64,000 nucleotides of DNA. Source: a virus. Lineage: Duplodnaviria > Heunggongvirae > Uroviricota > Caudoviricetes. The position numbers and the translations under genes were made by a program. This document shows positions 19,727 through 38,635 of the stretch, in pieces. Every line of letters begins with the position of its first letter. The first letter of the stretch is position 1. The notes below the pieces were generated by a model that saw only the letters and a program-made list of their open reading frames with translations, had not been told where the DNA came from and did no database searches. The DNA is taken from the IMG/VR virus record IMGVR_UViG_638275541_000001; one strand, 5' to 3'.

Positions 19727-27742
<8,016 letters not shown>

Positions 27743-27744
27743 TA

Positions 27745-28911
27745 ATGGCAGTAGGTGAAATTCAAATTAGTGCCTTGCCTCAAGCAGCCTTACCAATTGA
27801 CCTTAGTGATATCTTCCATCTTAAGCAGGGTATTGAGGATAAGAGATGTACTCTTGAGCAATTACTTGCTCCACACTCAAGCCTAAGAAATAACCCTCAC
27901 GGTGTTACTAAAACACAAATTGGTTTAGATAATGTTATCAATGCTCTTCAGTTAGTTGCTGCAAATAACTTATCAGATGTTGCTAATGTCACTGAGGCAA
28001 GAGCAAATCTACAGATTATGTCTTCAGAAGAGGTTAATAGCCTTGTTCAACAGCATATTAATGATAAAAGTAACCCACACAATACAACTAAGGCACAGGT
28101 TGGTTTGAGCAATGTCCAGAACTGGGTGACATCTAACCTTTATAATGAGGATGCAGATAAGTATGCTACAGCAAGAGCAGTAAATAACTTGTACAAGGCT
28201 GTTCAGGCTTCTTATCCAGTAGGTACTATCCATCTCTCTATGAATCCTGCAAACCCTTCTACATATTTAATTTGTGGGGGTACTTGGGAGTTAGTTTCAA
28301 GAGGAAGAGCACTTGTAGGTTATGATAGTGCTTCTAGGCCAGTTGGTAGTAACTTTGGCTCAAGTAGTATTAGCTTATCTAGTAACAACCTACCATCACA
28401 TAGCCATTCAATCTATCTAACTGGTGGTGGACATACTCATGGTGCTGCTATTACTATCGATGGCTTTGATTACGGCAATAAGAGCACAAACAGTTTCGAT
28501 TATGGAACAAAGACCACTAATAGCACTGGTGCTCACACCCACTCAGTGAGTGGTTCAACAAATACCACAGGTAATCACACACATACTGTAGGTGGTCGTT
28601 ACGGAGGTGACTCTATCGGTGGTAAACATCGTGTTCAGGTCTCAGGGACTGAACAGGTTTCCAGTGTAGCTGGTGACCACTCACACACTATTAGTGGTTC
28701 AACAAATACCACAGGTAATCACCAACACACTGTTGCAATTGGTGCTCACACACACACTGTTGCAATTGGTGCTCATACCCATAAAGGCACAGTAACTTTG
28801 CAGTCATCTGAACATACTCACTCAGGTACTACAGGTACTACAGGTTCTGGTCAAGCATTTAGCGTTGAACAACCATCCTTTGTGGTTTATGTATGGCAAA
28901 GAACCGCTTAA
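27745..28911 (+). CDS. tail fibre protein with C-terminal His-rich (HxH) module
   Basis: 388 aa; C-terminus GAHTHSVSGSTNTTGNHTHTVGG...GDHSHTISG...GAHTHTVAIGAHTHKG, resembling metal-binding HxH motifs of T-even fibre tips. Confidence 0.65.
   Translation: MAVGEIQISALPQAALPIDLSDIFHLKQGIEDKRCTLEQLLAPHSSLRNNPHGVTKTQIGLDNVINALQLVAANNLSDVANVTEARANLQIMSSEEVNSLVQQHINDKSNPHNTTKAQVGLSNVQNWVTSNLYNEDADKYATARAVNNLYKAVQASYPVGTIHLSMNPANPSTYLICGGTWELVSRGRALVGYDSASRPVGSNFGSSSISLSSNNLPSHSHSIYLTGGGHTHGAAITIDGFDYGNKSTNSFDYGTKTTNSTGAHTHSVSGSTNTTGNHTHTVGGRYGGDSIGGKHRVQVSGTEQVSSVAGDHSHTISGSTNTTGNHQHTVAIGAHTHTVAIGAHTHKGTVTLQSSEHTHSGTTGTTGSGQAFSVEQPSFVVYVWQRTA
28495..28690 (+). repeat. ~196-bp repeat shared with 30955-31150 (fibre C-terminal module)
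   Basis: near-identical DNA runs in both fibre genes, e.g. GGTGCTCACACCCACTCAGTGAGTGGTTC and GACTCTATCGGTGGTAAACATCGTGTTCA..GTCTCAGGGACTGAACAGGTTTCCAGTGTAGCTGGTGACCACTCACACACT. Confidence 0.7.
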
Positions 28912-33696: not shown

Positions 33697-34212
33697 TTAC
33701 TTAACCTCAAAAACTGGCTCAAGAACCAATATAAAGTCTACACAGTCATCTTCTTCATCCAGAATACCATCAAAGTTCTTAGGAACGAAGTCGAAGAGGC
33801 TCATAACAAAACAGTCAGAAGTGACCCTGATAGTCCCTCCCATGTTCTCTACAGTTAACACTGTACGACTTTCTTTTACCTCCCTCAGAAGATTACTCAC
33901 AAAGTCATCTAAGAAATACTTCATTAGTGACTTGAAACCTTTAGGGTAATCTGTACCAGAGTATGTTTCAATCTGTGGTACAAGCTTAACATTTATACTA
34001 GTCTTTGTTAAGAACGTTTTAGAGAACATACTATCAGGTAACTTACAAACAGTCTTTCCAGTACCTTCATGTTCAATCTCAACAAAACCAGCTTCGTCGC
34101 CACATGTGACTATTTTAAAAGATGCTTCATTCTCATGCTGCGAAGCCATAAACTTTTTAAGCATCACTTTAAGGAAATCTGCATGAGCATCTTGTAAGTA
34201 GATATCAATCAT
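33697..34212 (-). CDS. hypothetical protein
   Basis: 171-aa ORF in co-directional array. Confidence 0.4.
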   Translation of the reverse strand: MIDIYLQDAHADFLKVMLKKFMASQHENEASFKIVTCGDEAGFVEIEHEGTGKTVCKLPDSMFSKTFLTKTSINVKLVPQIETYSGTDYPKGFKSLMKYFLDDFVSNLLREVKESRTVLTVENMGGTIRVTSDCFVMSLFDFVPKNFDGILDEEDDCVDFILVLEPVFEVK

Positions 34213-34586: not shown

Positions 34587-34916
34587 TTAATCTGCCAACC
34601 TTAAATTGAAATTAACACCAAATTTTTCACACACTCCCAACATATACTCAAGGGAAACATTCCCAGTGAGGTGGATTATGTTGGATACACGAGCCTGAGA
34701 GATACCGCAAATTTTAGCAACTTGTTCTTGAGAAAGACCTCTGGATTTAATCTCTCTCTTAAAACGATGTGCAACGAAGTCTCTCATTTCGTCTACATCC
34801 ATTGGACAAATATAACTCTCCATTTCAGCCTCTCTATCAGCCTCCCAATCATCTTGTGGGGCATAAGGGTCAAAAACATCATTCATCTTTCTTCTTCCGT
34901 TTGCGTGAAGTGTCAA
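34587..34916 (-). CDS. helix-turn-helix DNA-binding protein
   Basis: 109 aa; C-terminal LSQEQVAKICGISQARVSNI matches HTH pattern. Confidence 0.5.
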   Translation of the reverse strand: MTLHANGRRKMNDVFDPYAPQDDWEADREAEMESYICPMDVDEMRDFVAHRFKREIKSRGLSQEQVAKICGISQARVSNIIHLTGNVSLEYMLGVCEKFGVNFNLRLAD

Positions 34917-35091
34917 TCAATGAATCTATGTTTGTAGCCCTAACCTTTTCACGTTCATCGTTAAGATAATCATCAAGAACCTTTTCAATCTGTGAATCAT
35001 CTTGACAGATAACTGTAAAGACTGTAAAGCCGTCTGTATCATCAATTATCTTACCATAACCGCTTCTGGGATGTAACTTTTTAAGAGCCAT
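34879..35091 (-). CDS. hypothetical small protein
   Basis: 70 aa; basic C-terminus. Confidence 0.35.
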   Translation of the reverse strand: MALKKLHPRSGYGKIIDDTDGFTVFTVICQDDSQIEKVLDDYLNDEREKVRATNIDSLIDTSRKRKKKDE

Positions 35092-35092
35092 A

Positions 35093-35476
35093 TCAAATAC
35101 CTGTGCAGCTTCTGTTTTCTAAGAAATACTCAACACCATACATAGCTTTTTGCATCAAATCTTCTTTAAACTGGATACGATGGTTGAGCATAGCCTGTAC
35201 ATCAATATCATCATGGTGCTTCTCTTTAATATTTGCAGATTGCAGGAAATACTCTGCAAGAACGCGATACTGATAGTCAGTTACCTTATCAGTCATCTCT
35301 GTTAAAGACTCTTCAGAGATTGGTTTCAGTAGCTCACCATTAGCTAGAGCAACACCTTTAACAATCTGGCAAGTGTCTTCTGGAACACCTGATAAGTCCA
35401 CATTTGGAAGTTCTGTTGCATTGACTGGTAAATTCATTGCCATAACCATTGCAGCAGCTAATAAAATCTTTTTCAT
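35093..35476 (-). CDS. secreted/periplasmic protein with signal peptide
   Basis: 127 aa; N-terminus MKKILLAAAMVMAMNLPVNA; RBS GAGG; own promoter-like element upstream. Confidence 0.5.
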   Translation of the reverse strand: MKKILLAAAMVMAMNLPVNATELPNVDLSGVPEDTCQIVKGVALANGELLKPISEESLTEMTDKVTDYQYRVLAEYFLQSANIKEKHHDDIDVQAMLNHRIQFKEDLMQKAMYGVEYFLENRSCTGI

Positions 35477-35520
35477 AATGACCTCAAAGTTATATTAAAT
35501 TTTGTATTACATTGAGTATA

Positions 35521-35549
35521 AAAATAAGCTATAACACCTGACTTGTCAA
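35521..35549 (-). promoter_or_regulatory. sigma70-like promoter on minus strand for the secreted-protein gene
   Basis: minus-strand TTGACA-N17-TATTTT. Confidence 0.35.
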
Positions 35550-35758
35550 CAGATTTTATAGCTTATTTGGCAGATTTTTTATAAGGCTACTGCCATCCTT
35601 CCATACCAGACTACGCCATGCCAGACCAGACTTCACATCACCTTACCGTGCAATACATCGCTTAAAACCCTCTTAGAAGACTCTTAAGTGATGCTGGTGA
35701 GTACCCGTTGGTTCATGCTGCTCAGCATACTCACCAAATTTTCTATGTCAACAACTTT

Positions 35759-36859
35759 TTATTCGTAATCTCGAATAACTAGCCCAACAGGGAACTGTAA
35801 AGACCCCTTACGAGTCATCTTCTGGAACTGAACCGTCAAAGGTTTCCCGATAAACTCTTCAGGATGCTCAGCAAGATACTGTTTCTTCTCATGAGTAGTC
35901 TTCCATGAGACATCTACAAAGACGTTAGGAAGAGTCTCTACAACGAACTTACCATGACCACGTTTATCGGTCTTGACACCAGTCACTTTAAACTCTTCAG
36001 TGTGCATCTTCTTGTGCTTAATCAAGAAGTATGAACGGTGACAACACTCATAGAAGGAGTCTTCAGAGATTGAACGGTACATTGCACCTTCAAACTTAGC
36101 TTCAACCCACTTATCATGGGCTTCGTCAAACTCTTCCCAAGAATTTACACGGATAGTCTGTACAGGAACCACTCTACAGGTATCACCAAGCCCAACAATG
36201 GGTGAGTTATCAATAACTTCACGACGCTCAGGCCAAGATTTTGAATTGTCACAGATATCATACCAGTAGAATTTAAGAAGGTGACGGTCTGGATTGTCAG
36301 CATTCTTAATCATAGATACAATATCTTCTAAGTCCCAACCATGAGCATAAATCTCTCCATCAAAGTCTTCAACTTGTGGATGTAATTTAAGCAACAAAAG
36401 TAAATCTGGAATTAGTTCTGCTGGAACGTTGTAAACAGTATTCTCACGAGAATAAGCTGTGAAACCGACTGAATCAGCATCTCTTGAAATTCTACAACGG
36501 ACACCATCAAGTTTTGGTTGAGCATCAGCAGGGAACTTCAGATACTTTGCATGGCTAACCTTTGCAGCATCATGAGCAAGCTGTACACCTACCTTCTCAG
36601 TATTCTGTGCAGACTCTTTTGTGTAAGCGTAACCTTTACGGTCTACTTGTTTCTTGTACTTAGCAGAAACTTCAAAGAGAGCTTGCTGTTCAGCGTTACG
36701 CTCATTCTTTTTACCGATGTTCTTAGGCTCTGCTGTGTACTCTTCAAACATCATCTTGCCATTTTCTTTACCGTAGGTTGTGATAACTTTGTCACCTACA
36801 GCAACGCATGACCAGACGTTGAAGGAACCATCTTTATTTTGTTTGTATAGGATTGTCAT
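35759..36859 (-). CDS. ATP-dependent DNA ligase
   Basis: adenylation motif I KLDGVRC; start moved to second Met with RBS AGAGGT. Confidence 0.7.
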   Translation of the reverse strand: MTILYKQNKDGSFNVWSCVAVGDKVITTYGKENGKMMFEEYTAEPKNIGKKNERNAEQQALFEVSAKYKKQVDRKGYAYTKESAQNTEKVGVQLAHDAAKVSHAKYLKFPADAQPKLDGVRCRISRDADSVGFTAYSRENTVYNVPAELIPDLLLLLKLHPQVEDFDGEIYAHGWDLEDIVSMIKNADNPDRHLLKFYWYDICDNSKSWPERREVIDNSPIVGLGDTCRVVPVQTIRVNSWEEFDEAHDKWVEAKFEGAMYRSISEDSFYECCHRSYFLIKHKKMHTEEFKVTGVKTDKRGHGKFVVETLPNVFVDVSWKTTHEKKQYLAEHPEEFIGKPLTVQFQKMTRKGSLQFPVGLVIRDYE

Positions 36860-37052
36860 TTTTAACCTCTGAGTGATACCAAGTATTGCAAGCATTACAT
36901 GCGTAAAGCTCTAAGTCATTTTTATCTGGTTTATGGAAACAGTTTGACCCACAACGACACCGGAATAGCTTACCATCAACACGAAGAATGAATGTTTCAA
37001 GCTCACCATCTTCTGTAAGAACTGCGTTCTTAAATTTATCTTCTACAGTCAT
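36834..37052 (-). CDS. small zinc-finger protein
   Basis: 72 aa; CRCGSNCFH...CNACNTWYH. Confidence 0.4.
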   Translation of the reverse strand: MTVEDKFKNAVLTEDGELETFILRVDGKLFRCRCGSNCFHKPDKNDLELYACNACNTWYHSEVKNDNPIQTK

Positions 37053-37265: not shown

Positions 37266-37523
37266 TCACTCAATAACCGTAGTATGTGATTGACCATTTT
37301 TGCCGTAGCTATAAGATGTTGTTGTTTGAGAGTTTGGACATCTGACAACAACAATATCCCTACTTATAGCGTCACCATTGAGTTTGTAGATTTTGCAGTC
37401 TTGCATCTCTGGAGGGAGGCTATAAGAGGCGTCTTTGTTTTCATAAGATGGGTTACAGCCAGCCAGAAAAATTACTCCAAGTGCAACCATTGCTTTCACA
37501 CAACTCTTAACCTTATTGTTCAC
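37266..37523 (-). CDS. small lipoprotein
   Basis: 85 aa; MNNKVKSCVKAMVALGVIFLAGC with lipobox LAGC. Confidence 0.5.
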   Translation of the reverse strand: MNNKVKSCVKAMVALGVIFLAGCNPSYENKDASYSLPPEMQDCKIYKLNGDAISRDIVVVRCPNSQTTTSYSYGKNGQSHTTVIE

Positions 37524-38131: not shown

Positions 38132-38635
38132 TCAACTTAGTTTTGCAAACTCTCCGTGGAGTTTAATAGCAGCTTCACAGTAAGCTTTATGGGCTTCTTC
38201 AGGTGTGTCAAATAAACCAAGTGATGTCCTTTTACCTCTGCATGTTATAGCTGCCCTCCACTTATTGCAGTCTTTAAAGTAATGTACACCCTTGTAACCT
38301 GATTTGTTAGTCGTCTGCTTTATTCTATTTTGAGCATTTCCGTATTTATCAGTCTCCCTAAGATTAGAAATGTGATTATTACTTCTGTTACCATCAATGT
38401 GGTCTATCATCTTAGTGGGTTTGTAACCATGTTCAAACCACCAAACGAGGTGATGAATTTTTATTACGACATCTTTGAATTTAAGTACTTTGTAACCGTA
38501 AGCATCAGCACCTCCTGCAATCTGCCCAGCTTTAGCTTGTCTATTCCTGTCATACTTGTTGTAGAAGACCCCTTTGTCGGGGTCGTAAATAAAATTATCC
38601 TTGTAATCTTGAAGTGTTAGTGTACGGCGTACCAT
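38132..38635 (-). CDS. HNH homing endonuclease with AP2-type DNA-binding domain
   Basis: HLVWWFEHG...IDHIDGNRSNNHISNLR then SGYKGVHY...KWRAAI...LGLFDTPEEAHKAY; paralogous to 48209-48709 and 61059-61550. Confidence 0.7.
   Translation of the reverse strand: MVRRTLTLQDYKDNFIYDPDKGVFYNKYDRNRQAKAGQIAGGADAYGYKVLKFKDVVIKIHHLVWWFEHGYKPTKMIDHIDGNRSNNHISNLRETDKYGNAQNRIKQTTNKSGYKGVHYFKDCNKWRAAITCRGKRTSLGLFDTPEEAHKAYCEAAIKLHGEFAKLS

What the first reader, a model, noticed from the sequence alone, without database searches (positions are those of the whole stretch)
35093..35476. Secreted protein with its own promoter between the nucleotide-metabolism genes and ligase
A 127-aa ORF starts with a classical cleavable signal peptide and has a separate promoter-like element and 280-nt upstream leader. 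Exported early proteins in virulent phages are uncommon and are candidates for periplasmic or envelope-targeted factors.
Basis: partly seen in the sequence, partly recalled or inferred. Interest (0 to 1): 0.4.

Follow-up and report, generated by a model that had tools for sequence, protein, structure and literature searches.

The report
Exported phage protein beside orphan guide-RNA
The ORF is a real, conserved Felix O1 gene for a small protein that is almost certainly exported to the host periplasm and has its own promoter, but its "280-nt leader" is really a leftover guide-RNA gene of the recently described VIPR phage-versus-phage system, stranded without its protein partner.

Summary
The window is Salmonella phage Felix O1. 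The 127-aa ORF (35093..35476, minus strand) is FO1a gp86, Felix O1 ORF 87, PHROG 4332, function unknown.

Confirmed:
- All 29 family sequences collected carry an MKK + hydrophobic + AxA signal peptide and two invariant cysteines.
- The mature part models confidently (pLDDT 95) as a three-helix bundle with no informative structural relative.
- A sigma-70 promoter (TTGACA-17-TATTTT, 35549..35521) sits about 45 nt upstream of the ATG. In every relative examined a consensus promoter sits inside an inverted repeat whose arms covary.

Corrected:
- The 282-nt ligase-to-gp86 spacer is not a leader. It holds a second promoter, a hairpin, 11 YNNGG repeats and a structured tail.
- That is the anatomy of a vrRNA of the VIPR system (2026 preprints, model phage SUSP1).
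- Felix O1 has neither vipr nor vap, so this vrRNA is an orphan.
- About half of the related phage records are in the same vipr-less state.
- gp86 is independent of VIPR. It peaks in the middle of infection, not early, and is dispensable in two published knock-down or knock-out screens.

Best reading: a Sec-exported, disulfide-locked periplasmic accessory binder. Its function is unproven. The protein is ordinary to moderately interesting. The orphan vrRNA is the more novel point.

The parts
35093..35476 (-). gp86 coding sequence (127 aa including the signal peptide; stop codon at 35093-35095). Equals FO1a gp86, Felix O1 ORF 87 (Felix01p159), PHROG 4332.
35417..35476 (-). Signal peptide, residues 1-20: MKKILLAAAMVMAMNLPVNA. 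Predicted SPase I cleavage after Ala20.
   Evidence: anatomy; conserved in all homologues
35096..35416 (-). Mature protein, 107 aa, acidic (19 D/E against 10 K/R). Modelled as a three-helix bundle. Invariant Cys36 and Cys124 (precursor numbering), probably forming a disulfide.
35482..35485 (-). Shine-Dalgarno GAGG, 5 nt before the ATG.
35521..35549 (-). Promoter P2: TTGACA (35549-35544), 17-nt spacer, TATTTT (35526-35521). This is the proximal promoter of the gp86-gp85-HTH block.
35522..35568 (.). Inverted repeat (13 + 5 bp) enclosing the -35 of P2. As RNA it is a -17.8 kcal/mol hairpin followed by UUUUUAUACU. It may terminate or insulate read-through from upstream.
   Evidence: covarying arms in L162
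35565..35600 (-). vrRNA 3' tail. Hairpin TGGCAG (35595-35590) / CTGCCA (35573-35568). Possible pseudoknot AAGG (35600-35597) / CCTT (35586-35583).
   Evidence: covarying TGGTAG/CTACCA version; the paper describes a tail with a pseudoknot; the hairpin alone is not significant on energy
35601..35655 (-). Eleven YNNGG repeats: TATTG CACGG TAAGG TGATG TGAAG TCTGG TCTGG CATGG CGTAG TCTGG TATGG. This is the variable guide region of a vrRNA-like unit. It is the only such array in the Felix O1 genome.
35656..35694 (-). Hairpin H1 preceding the repeats (-16.3 kcal/mol, z -4.6). Relatives have two covarying versions with G.U pairs. The homologous element is annotated as a rho-independent terminator in phage ASO1A.
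35724..35751 (-). Promoter P1: TTGACA (35751-35746), 16-nt spacer, TATGCT (35729-35724), immediately after the ligase stop. It is homologous to the sole gp86 promoter of cassette-less relatives. Here it probably drives the vrRNA unit.
35695..35736 (.). 9-bp inverted repeat TGGTGAGTA/TACTCACCA flanking the -10 of P1. The arms covary in relatives.
34879..35091 (-). gp85 (70 aa, PHROG 4473). It starts 1 nt after the gp86 stop, so the two are probably translationally coupled.
34587..34886 (-). gp84, a Cro/C1-type HTH regulator, overlapping gp85 by 8 nt. It is the third gene of the same block.
35759..36859 (-). ATP-dependent DNA ligase, the upstream neighbour. The interval between it and gp86 is the VIPR insertion hot spot.

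Best explanation
gp86 is a genuine, transcribed accessory gene of Felix O1-like phages.

Expression. It is the first gene of a tightly packed block (gp86, gp85, HTH regulator, and on to DHFR and thymidylate synthase). A host sigma-70 promoter (P2) about 45 nt upstream can express the block. P2 is embedded in a hairpin that could terminate or insulate transcription arriving from the ligase side.

Export and fold (inferred). The precursor is exported by the Sec pathway and cleaved after Ala20. The 107-aa acidic mature protein folds in the periplasm into a three-helix bundle. The bundle is locked by a Cys36-Cys124 disulfide between helix 1 and the C-terminal tail.

Function (inferred). The protein is dispensable in laboratory hosts. 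It is one of the two most diverged genes of its block between genera. I therefore read it as a periplasmic binder or inhibitor used in envelope-level conflict. Superinfection exclusion or neutralising a host periplasmic factor are the likeliest roles. The logic resembles T4 Spackle, but gp86 is not related to Spackle.

The spacer. The 282 nt upstream are not its leader. They hold promoter P1 plus a solitary vrRNA-like unit (hairpin, 11 YNNGG repeats, structured tail). This unit is left at the site where relatives carry a complete VIPR system: vrRNA, vipr, vap, then more vrRNAs.

Shown: gene, conservation, signal-peptide anatomy, promoters, vrRNA anatomy, absence of vipr and vap.
Inferred: export, cleavage site, disulfide, periplasmic binding role, terminator function of the hairpin.
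For: Identity and conservation.

Signal peptide: one -3/-1 site and no other hydrophobic segment. Every family member has an MKK-hydrophobic-AxA N-terminus despite unrelated signal-peptide sequences, and exactly two invariant Cys in the mature part. P0013 joins a Felix O1-type signal peptide to a Moogle-type mature domain, which shows the two parts are modular.

Structure: pLDDT 95.3, pTM 0.85, helices at 11-25, 35-67 and 73-101.

Divergence between genera: gp86 is 30-35% identical. Ligase is 89-97%, the HTH regulator 65-77%, gp83 63-71% and gp85 51-62%.

Transcription: RT-PCR shows ORF 87 maximal at 25 min.

Dispensability: SUSP1 agp037 'Not Fit'. Bas63 gene 37 scored about -0.4 to +0.36, while structural genes score about -1 to -3.

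Promoter. Hairpin energy.

Spacer is a VIPR remnant. The YNNGG array is unique in the genome and absent from shuffles. Relatives have 87 such arrays at the same site. Nine array-adjacent ORFs, found only through the DNA pattern, all match PHROG 4652. Their profile hits PDB 36pp 'SUSP1 Vipr protein' at E 2.5e-58. The published description of vrRNAs as 9-16 YNNGG repeats plus a structured tail flanking vipr and vap in SUSP1 matches. There is no vipr or vap anywhere in Felix O1.

gp86 is independent of VIPR: orthologues exist with no arrays at all.
Against: - No experimental localisation exists and no dedicated signal-peptide predictor was available.
- The disulfide is inferred from invariance only. 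Model coordinates were not inspected.
- Fold searches gave only generic helical-bundle matches, so nothing ties the protein to any binding partner.
- No virion peptidoglycan hydrolase domain was seen in the two tail proteins that gave Pfam hits; a third tail ORF gave no hit. A Spackle-type target is therefore not evident.
- Within Felixounavirus the protein is 94-100% conserved. That fits a stable housekeeping-like role as well as an arms race.
- The Bas63 score near 0, rather than +1, could mean a mild fitness contribution or polar effects on genes 36-34.
- The P2 hairpin has an AU-rich stem and was not flagged by the terminator scan.
Confidence: 0.65

Rival explanations
1. gp86 is specifically a Spackle-like superinfection-exclusion factor. 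It would inhibit a peptidoglycan-degrading or membrane-penetrating component of the tail tip of incoming Felix O1-like phages in the periplasm.
For: It shares a design with T4 Spackle as described in PMC7677548: a cleaved periplasmic signal, a small acidic alpha-helical bundle, and one disulfide near the two ends of the mature chain. gp86 matches these points. It has diverged strongly between genera. It is dispensable in single-phage laboratory screens, as expected for an exclusion factor.
Against: There is no sequence or fold similarity to Spackle. Of the three tail proteins scanned, the tape measure gave only TMP_3, the next protein only Dit-like, and the third gave no hit. Superinfection exclusion has not been reported for Felix O1 in the papers read. 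gp86 is a middle gene, not an immediate-early one.
Confidence: 0.15
2. gp86 is a lysis-timing or envelope-maintenance factor acting on the phage's own lysis proteins. This would resemble an antiholin periplasmic domain, or act as a periplasmic chaperone or protector.
For: It is a small helical periplasmic protein. It is expressed mid-infection. Felix O1 carries rIIA and rIIB.
Against: It is not linked to the lysin (gp35) or to the spanin genes. It has no fold match to any lysis regulator. Knock-down produced no phenotype.
Confidence: 0.1
3. The N-terminal hydrophobic segment is not a cleaved signal. The protein would be membrane-anchored or cytoplasmic.
For: No experimental data exist and no trained predictor was run. 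The h-region is Met/Ala-rich.
Against: The h-region is only 11 residues in Felix O1, too short to span a membrane. A helix-breaking Pro lies at -4. V-x-A lies at -3/-1. The same n-h-c layout with AxA recurs in every homologue, and a cysteine pair is conserved in the mature part.
Confidence: 0.08
4. The 282-nt spacer is a cis-regulatory leader of gp86. The YNNGG tract would be a protein-binding or structural control element for gp86 expression.
For: The whole spacer folds better than shuffles (z -3.2). P1 could give a 240-nt 5' UTR. The last array, tail and P2 are 84-96% identical across genera.
Against: gp86 orthologues in CHB7, Maleficent, ESh22, L034, L037, L039 and L162 have no such tract, only a promoter 50-80 nt upstream. 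The same tract type flanks vipr genes in unrelated phages. It is experimentally a guide RNA in SUSP1. P2 lies downstream of it.
Confidence: 0.07
5. gp86 is a third, unrecognised component of the VIPR system.
For: It lies immediately downstream of the last vrRNA in SUSP1, Felix O1 and most relatives.
Against: It is present in many phages with no vrRNA, vipr or vap. It was not seen next to the arrays in the 14 multi-array loci whose flanking ORFs were listed, apart from one Felixounavirus locus. The published loci contain only vipr and vap. A periplasmic protein cannot act on DNA targeting.
Confidence: 0.02

Closest known systems
T4 Spackle (gp61.3), the periplasmic inhibitor of the gp5 tail lysozyme
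   Same: Both are small proteins of a virulent myovirus with a cleaved N-terminal export signal. Both have an acidic, compact, all-helical mature domain. Both have one cysteine pair joining the N- and C-terminal regions. Both are dispensable for single infections.
   Different: There is no detectable sequence or structural relationship. The gp86 mature domain is 107 aa with three long helices, whereas Spackle is 75 aa with five short helices. gp86 is a middle gene, not an early one. No tail lysozyme target is evident in Felix O1. This is an analogy only.
VIPR system of phage SUSP1 (Vipr RAMP protein + Vap + vrRNAs; bioRxiv 10.64898/2026.04.26.720920 and .720927)
   Same: The spacer upstream of gp86 lies at the homologous site (ligase, then VIPR, then the gp86 orthologue). 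It has the vrRNA anatomy of YNNGG repeats (11, within the published 9-16) plus a structured 3' tail. It is 84% identical at nucleotide level to the last SUSP1 vrRNA region.
   Different: Felix O1 has no vipr and no vap gene anywhere, and only one vrRNA unit against four in SUSP1. No exact 1-nt-skip target was found in IMG/VR or in GTDB species genomes. The papers do not describe vipr-less vrRNAs.
Solitary CRISPR repeat units / RNA anti-CRISPRs of phages (recalled from memory, not tested)
   Same: Both are a guide-RNA-like element carried by a phage without the cognate effector genes.
   Different: This is a different RNA class. No evidence here shows that the Felix O1 unit is expressed or binds any Vipr.
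T5 Llp and Cor-type phage lipoproteins (receptor-blocking exclusion factors)
   Same: These too are envelope-targeted accessory proteins of virulent phages. Felix O1 has a candidate of this kind 1.8 kb upstream (37266..37523).
   Different: gp86 has no lipobox cysteine and is predicted to be soluble.

Membership tests
Sec-type (SPase I) cleavable signal peptide | Positively charged n-region | tested here: met
   MKK at residues 1-3 in all 29 sequences
Sec-type (SPase I) cleavable signal peptide | Hydrophobic h-region of about 7-15 residues, too short for a transmembrane helix | tested here: met
   ILLAAAMVMAM, 11 residues, mean Kyte-Doolittle 2.65
Sec-type (SPase I) cleavable signal peptide | Small, uncharged residues at -3 and -1 (AxA-like) after a polar c-region | tested here: met
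   NLPVNA|TEL is the only candidate site. Homologues have ASA, AAA, AVA, AYA or VKA.
Sec-type (SPase I) cleavable signal peptide | Actual export and cleavage | not testable with these tools
   Needs a PhoA fusion, fractionation or N-terminal mass spectrometry
Bacterial lipoprotein (SPase II) | Lipobox [LVI][ASTVI][GAS]C at the cleavage site | tested here: not met
   No Cys before residue 36 in the Felix O1 protein
T4 Spackle family | Sequence homology to gp61.3 | tested here: not met
   phmmer against all PDB chain sequences (the set that would include Spackle, whose crystal structure is published): no hit at E <= 10
T4 Spackle family | Spackle fold (flat bundle of five short helices) | tested here: not met
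T4 Spackle family | Binds and inhibits a tail lysozyme | not testable with these tools
   No lysozyme domain was found in the tail proteins scanned. A binding assay is needed.
VIPR system (for the 282-nt spacer) | vrRNA variable region of 9-16 tandem YNNGG units with conserved GGY and hypervariable NN | tested here: met
   11 units at 35655..35601. Y is present in 11 of 11 units, the second G in 11 of 11 and the first G in 7 of 11. This is comparable to SUSP1's own last vrRNA.
VIPR system (for the 282-nt spacer) | Conserved structured 3' tail of about 40 nt (hairpin and pseudoknot) | tested here: inconclusive
   The hairpin TGGCAG/CTGCCA and the possible AAGG/CCTT pairing covary with the TGGTAG/CTACCA and GTGG/CCAC versions. 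The hairpin alone is not significant on energy (z -0.6). No formal covariation count was run.
VIPR system (for the 282-nt spacer) | Adjacent vipr (RAMP) gene | tested here: not met
   tblastn of Vipr against the window plus FO1a 1-45000: best E 0.41. 118 phage records have a Vipr at least 90% identical to the query, against 257 with gp86.
VIPR system (for the 282-nt spacer) | Adjacent vap gene | tested here: not met
   tblastn of the PHROG 5926 protein: best E 1.9
VIPR system (for the 282-nt spacer) | Expression as an RNA of about 100 nt that co-purifies with Vipr | not testable with these tools
   Needs sRNA-seq of Felix O1 infection and a pull-down with Vipr supplied in trans
VIPR system (for the 282-nt spacer) | Natural target obeying the 1-nt skip rule | tested here: not met
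   ACNAANGANGANCTNCTNATNGTNCTNAT: 0 exact matches in IMG/VR and in GTDB species genomes. Mismatch-tolerant and strain-level searches were not possible.

The most novel reading that the evidence does not exclude
The solitary vrRNA kept by Felix O1, and by roughly half of its relatives that lack vipr and vap, is not a decaying relic but a functional RNA. It could load onto Vipr supplied in trans by a co-infecting relative, satellite or prophage, and so borrow an effector. Alternatively it could act as a decoy that soaks up a competitor's Vipr, an RNA 'anti-VIPR' analogous to RNA anti-CRISPRs. The evidence does not exclude this. The GG integrity of the arrays is the same in vipr-less and vipr-bearing loci (0.72 against 0.76). 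The tail and the flanking promoter are nearly invariant across three genera.
Probability: 0.15. Interest if true: 0.75.

Novelty: new member of a known kind. Interest (0 to 1): 0.45.

Why it matters
Felix O1 is a reference Salmonella phage used for typing and biocontrol, and gp86 is conserved in all of its relatives found here. A defined periplasmic accessory protein is a concrete candidate for superinfection exclusion or envelope manipulation. That would affect how Felix O1-type phages behave in cocktails.

The reinterpretation of the 'leader' may matter more. It places a VIPR guide RNA in a classical phage that lacks the effector, and shows that this vipr-less state is common. That makes testable whether vrRNAs can work in trans or act as decoys. 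It also marks the ligase-to-gp86 interval as a hot spot for gain and loss of VIPR.

For annotation, short ORFs called across these arrays may be spurious. One candidate, not checked, is bas63_0038, which lies in the homologous interval of Bas63.

Tried and rejected
Function of gp86 by homology:
- Pfam, NCBIfam, PADLOC and PDB sequence searches gave nothing above noise.
- An exhaustive HMMER search of 1.84 billion representatives found only 4 family members.
- The afdb50 library was unavailable.

Tail-lysozyme target: of three tail ORFs scanned, two gave only TMP_3 and Dit-like domains and one gave nothing.

RNA families: Rfam found nothing for the spacer or for a five-array relative. A weak L2-leader hit at 34888..34945 is below threshold and lies inside coding sequence, so I treat it as chance.

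Readings of the (GGTNN)n tract considered before the link to Vipr was found:
- binding site for a TRAP-like ring protein;
- G-rich R-loop replication origin;
- array of T7-type primase sites;
- antisense Rho-utilisation site;
- two-tetrad G-quadruplex;
- RecA- or Chi-like recombination hot spot.
All were dropped once array-adjacent genes proved to be Vipr and the preprints were read.

Second copy of the spacer inside the genome: none.

Decay of the orphan array relative to vipr-linked arrays: no difference.

Target of the orphan vrRNA: no exact match.

Promoter scan statistics alone do not exceed chance. The case for the promoters rests on conservation.
Full report
**Source and identity**

The window is Salmonella phage Felix O1. 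A 3.5-kb stretch around the finding is 100% identical to phage FO1a (JF461087), and 258 Ounavirinae records match it.

The ORF lies on the minus strand at 35093..35476. It is FO1a gp86. In the original Felix O1 numbering it is ORF 87, because there the ligase is Gp88. A published supplement maps the SUSP1 orthologue agp037 to Felix01p159.

It matches PHROG 4332 (unknown function) over its full length, E 3e-67. Pfam, NCBIfam, PADLOC and PDB sequence searches give nothing meaningful.

**Is it a real gene?**

Yes, on several counts.
- tblastn finds it in 257 phage records: 213 at 90% identity or more, all Felixounavirus-like, and 43 at under 60% (30-37% in those listed) in Suspvirus and Mooglevirus.
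- An exhaustive HMMER scan of 1.84 billion cluster representatives finds only four representatives, so the family is narrow.
- Gene order is conserved: ligase or a variable insert, then gp86, gp85, the HTH regulator, gp83 and on to DHFR and thymidylate synthase.
- The same order holds in a more distant metagenomic phage carrying the 32%-identical P0029.
- gp85 starts 1 nt after the gp86 stop, and the HTH gene overlaps gp85, so the block looks translationally coupled.
- Whichard et al. detected an ORF 87 transcript by RT-PCR and list it with the genes maximal at 25 min. That is middle class, not early (PMC3185647).

**Signal peptide**

- The N-terminus has MKK, then an 11-residue hydrophobic core (mean Kyte-Doolittle 2.65), then NLPVNA with V at -3 and A at -1.
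- VNA|TEL is the only site that satisfies the -3/-1 rule.
- There is no lipobox and no other hydrophobic stretch. The mature part is acidic.
- All 29 family sequences collected share this layout, although the signal sequences belong to unrelated types...NLPVNA...SFGASA...SFSAAA...FNAYA.
- The mature part has exactly two invariant cysteines, Cys36 and Cys124.
- P0013, from Shigella phage vB_SflM_004, joins a Felix O1-type signal peptide to a Moogle-type mature domain. This shows the two modules are exchangeable.

Export, the cleavage site and the disulfide remain inferences. No trained predictor and no experiment were available.

**Structure**

With a 22-sequence alignment, AlphaFold2 gives pLDDT 95.3 and pTM 0.85 for the mature protein. 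The model has a 10-residue N-terminal coil and three helices at 11-25, 35-67 and 73-101.

**Evolutionary behaviour**

Between genera gp86 is 30-35% identical. By comparison, ligase is 89-97%, the HTH regulator 65-77%, gp83 63-71%, gp85 51-62% and DHFR 64-73%. Only gp82 is comparably diverged, at 32-41%.

Within Felixounavirus gp86 is 94-100% conserved.

**Published phenotypes**

- In the CRISPRi-ART screen of SUSP1 the orthologue agp037 was 'Not Fit' (PMC11879866).
- In PhageMaP of Bas63 (bas63_0037) gene 37 scored between about -0.4 and +0.36. This held in the two laboratory-host sheets and two defence-strain sheets that I read.
- In the same data, structural and replication genes scored about -1 to -3 and clearly dispensable genes about +1.
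- Downstream genes 36-34 scored about -1, so polar effects may colour the value for gene 37.

The gene is not essential under laboratory conditions.

**Promoters**

The scan finds TTGACA-17-TATTTT at 35549..35521 (P2) and TTGACA-16-TATGCT at 35751..35724 (P1). The number of promoter-like sites in the region is at chance, 11 against 9.5, so the argument rests on conservation.

- P2 and about 110 nt around it are essentially invariant in 24 distinct upstream sequences.
- The site is annotated as a promoter in phage ASO1A.
- Relatives without the spacer cassette (ESh22, CHB7, L034, L037, L039) have TTGACA-17-TATACT 50-80 nt upstream of the ATG.
- The distant L162 phage has the P2 type, AAAATCTGTTGACA...TATTTTTATAC.

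In every case the promoter sits inside an inverted repeat whose arms differ in sequence but remain complementary:
- AAATAAGCTATAA / TTATAGCTTATTT (Felix O1 P2)
- AGGCTGTAAAA / TTTTATGGCCT (L162)
- ACATAGCAAGT / ACTTGCTATGT (L037)
- CCTGACGGGT / ACCCGTCAGG (L034)
- CCGGTAGTT / AACTACCGG (CHB7)
- TGGTGAGTA / TACTCACCA (Felix O1 P1)

As RNA, the P2 hairpin has an energy of -17.8 kcal/mol (z -4.0) and is followed by UUUUUAUACU. I read it as an overlapping terminator and promoter that insulates the gp86 block. This is an inference.

P2 leaves a leader of about 35-40 nt, not 280 nt.

**What the 282-nt spacer is**

The ligase-to-gp86 interval is hyperplastic. It ranges from 85 to 2135 bp in 29 IMG/VR loci.

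Aligning the last 230 nt shows three parts: a hairpin in two covarying versions, a tract of variable length with a strict 5-nt period, and then the invariant block containing P2.

In Felix O1 the periodic tract is at 35655..35601, 11 YNNGG units. It is the only such tract in the whole genome and never appears in shuffles.

Relatives carry 1-5 such tracts at this site. I counted 87 tracts, 73 of them unique, with 10-20 detected units each. Position frequencies are G 0.76, G 0.90, T 0.85, then N N.

An exact scan of IMG/VR for (GGTNN)6GGT hit at least 120 contigs of unrelated phages. Many have up to 13 tandem tracts separated by short conserved spacers.

In those contigs the tracts abut a gene of about 190-210 aa. 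All nine such proteins tested match PHROG 4652. Their profile hits PDB entry 36pp, 'SUSP1 Vipr protein', at E 2.5e-58.

Two 2026 preprints describe exactly this as the VIPR system (10.64898/2026.04.26.720920 and .720927):
- a RAMP-like Vipr protein and an accessory Vap;
- vrRNAs made of 9-16 YNNGG repeats plus a structured 3' tail;
- the NN dinucleotides read double-stranded DNA with one base skipped per unit;
- the complex silences competing phages and satellites.

In SUSP1 the locus runs ligase, vrRNA1, vipr (agp039), vap (agp038), vrRNA2-4, then agp037, the gp86 orthologue.

**Felix O1 has an orphan vrRNA**

- tblastn with Vipr and Vap finds nothing in the window or in FO1a 1-45000, which together cover the genome.
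- The spacer therefore holds P1 plus one vrRNA-like unit without its effector.
- In the phage collection, 118 records have a Vipr at least 90% identical to the query. By comparison, 257 carry gp86, and 229 match the Felix O1 spacer at least in part.
- The vipr-less state is therefore common. Only 17 Salmonella-phage records match Vipr, against 74 that carry gp86.
- In the IMG/VR sample, 9 of 27 intervals are too short to hold vipr yet keep 1-2 arrays.
- The fraction of intact GG is 0.72 in the vipr-less intervals and 0.76 in the vipr-bearing ones. SUSP1's own last vrRNA is as degenerate as Felix O1's.
- There is thus no clear sign of decay.
- The 1-nt-skip target pattern has no exact match in IMG/VR or in GTDB species genomes.
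- The preprints do not mention Felix O1 or orphan vrRNAs.
- Rfam has no family for these RNAs.

**Relationship between gp86 and VIPR**

There is none beyond adjacency. gp86 orthologues occur with no arrays at all. gp86 was not seen next to the arrays in the loci from unrelated phages whose flanking ORFs I listed. VIPR appears to have inserted between an ancestral P1-type promoter and gp86.

**Mechanism and verdict**

The best-supported account is this. gp86 is a Sec-exported periplasmic protein, a three-helix bundle locked by a disulfide. It is expressed from its own insulated promoter as the first gene of a conserved middle-phase block. It is dispensable in the laboratory and diverges fast between genera.

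That profile fits a binder used in envelope-level conflict. The logic is that of T4 Spackle, but gp86 fails the sequence and fold tests for that family. No lysozyme target was seen.

The protein is a modestly interesting uncharacterised accessory factor. The correction of the 'leader' into an orphan VIPR guide RNA is the more noteworthy result. It falls within a kind already described in 2026.

Noticed in passing
window 35565..35694 (minus strand); also L010-L039: Solitary vrRNA-like unit (hairpin, 11 YNNGG repeats, structured tail) of the VIPR system in a phage that has neither vipr nor vap. About half of the related phage records are vipr-less but keep 1-2 such units, with no obvious decay of the GGY motifs.
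   Followed up: yes
window 37266..37523 (minus strand): An 85-aa ORF, MNNKVKSCVKAMVALGVIFLAGC|NPSY..., with a canonical lipobox (LAGC) and Asn at +2. It is a predicted lipoprotein on the same strand of the same co-oriented gene block. It matches PHROG 902, is 75-78% identical across genera, and is noted as 'membrane lipoprotein' in phage Maleficent. FO1a annotates a shorter start (gp90). It is a candidate Llp/Cor-type exclusion factor.
   Followed up: partly
window 35522..35568 and 35695..35736; L004 2360..2430; L162 3915..3975; L034, L037, L039: Every promoter in front of gp86 orthologues is embedded in an inverted repeat whose arms covary (six different arm sequences). In one type the left arm lies between -35 and -10. 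In the other it lies upstream of -35. Only read-through RNA, or DNA, could form the hairpin. It may be a combined terminator and promoter insulator.
   Followed up: partly
ligase-to-gp86 interval, window 35477..35758; L010-L039: The interval ranges from 85 to 2135 bp among relatives. SUSP1 carries partly duplicated copies of the spacer on both sides of vipr and vap. This suggests gain and loss of the VIPR cassette by recombination between vrRNA units.
   Followed up: partly
P0013 (Shigella phage vB_SflM_004): A mosaic gp86 homologue: a Felix O1-type signal peptide (MKKILLASAMVMAMNLPVKA) fused to a Mooglevirus-type mature domain. This implies recombination at the boundary between signal peptide and mature domain.
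   Followed up: no
window 33697..34212 (minus strand, gp82): gp82 (171 aa, no Pfam hit) is the only other gene of the block as diverged between genera as gp86 (32-41% identity). It is a second fast-evolving accessory gene.
   Followed up: no
L041 (Bas63 MZ501086) 27654..27800: The annotated 48-aa ORF bas63_0038 lies in the 590-nt ligase-to-gp37 interval, where relatives have vrRNA arrays. It may be a spurious call across an array.
   Followed up: no
IMG/VR loci L050, L051, L061, L093, L139 and others: Unrelated phage contigs carry up to 13 tandem YNNGG arrays with different short conserved spacers (for example AAGGAATGGTTTAATGAATTTAATTT, or AAGGCTAATGGGT). In most of the loci inspected the arrays lie on the same strand as, and next to, a Vipr (PHROG 4652) gene. 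They illustrate the diversity of array architectures.
   Followed up: partly
window 35759..36895 against the annotation 35759..36859: The longest ligase ORF (378 aa) starts 12 codons upstream of the annotated FO1a start (366 aa), and the 72-aa ORF upstream overlaps it. The true start is unresolved.
   Followed up: no
window 38132..38635 (minus strand): An HNH homing-endonuclease gene is wedged directly downstream of the DNA polymerase gene and overlaps its end. Other relatives have insertions elsewhere in this block (multi-piece matches).
   Followed up: no
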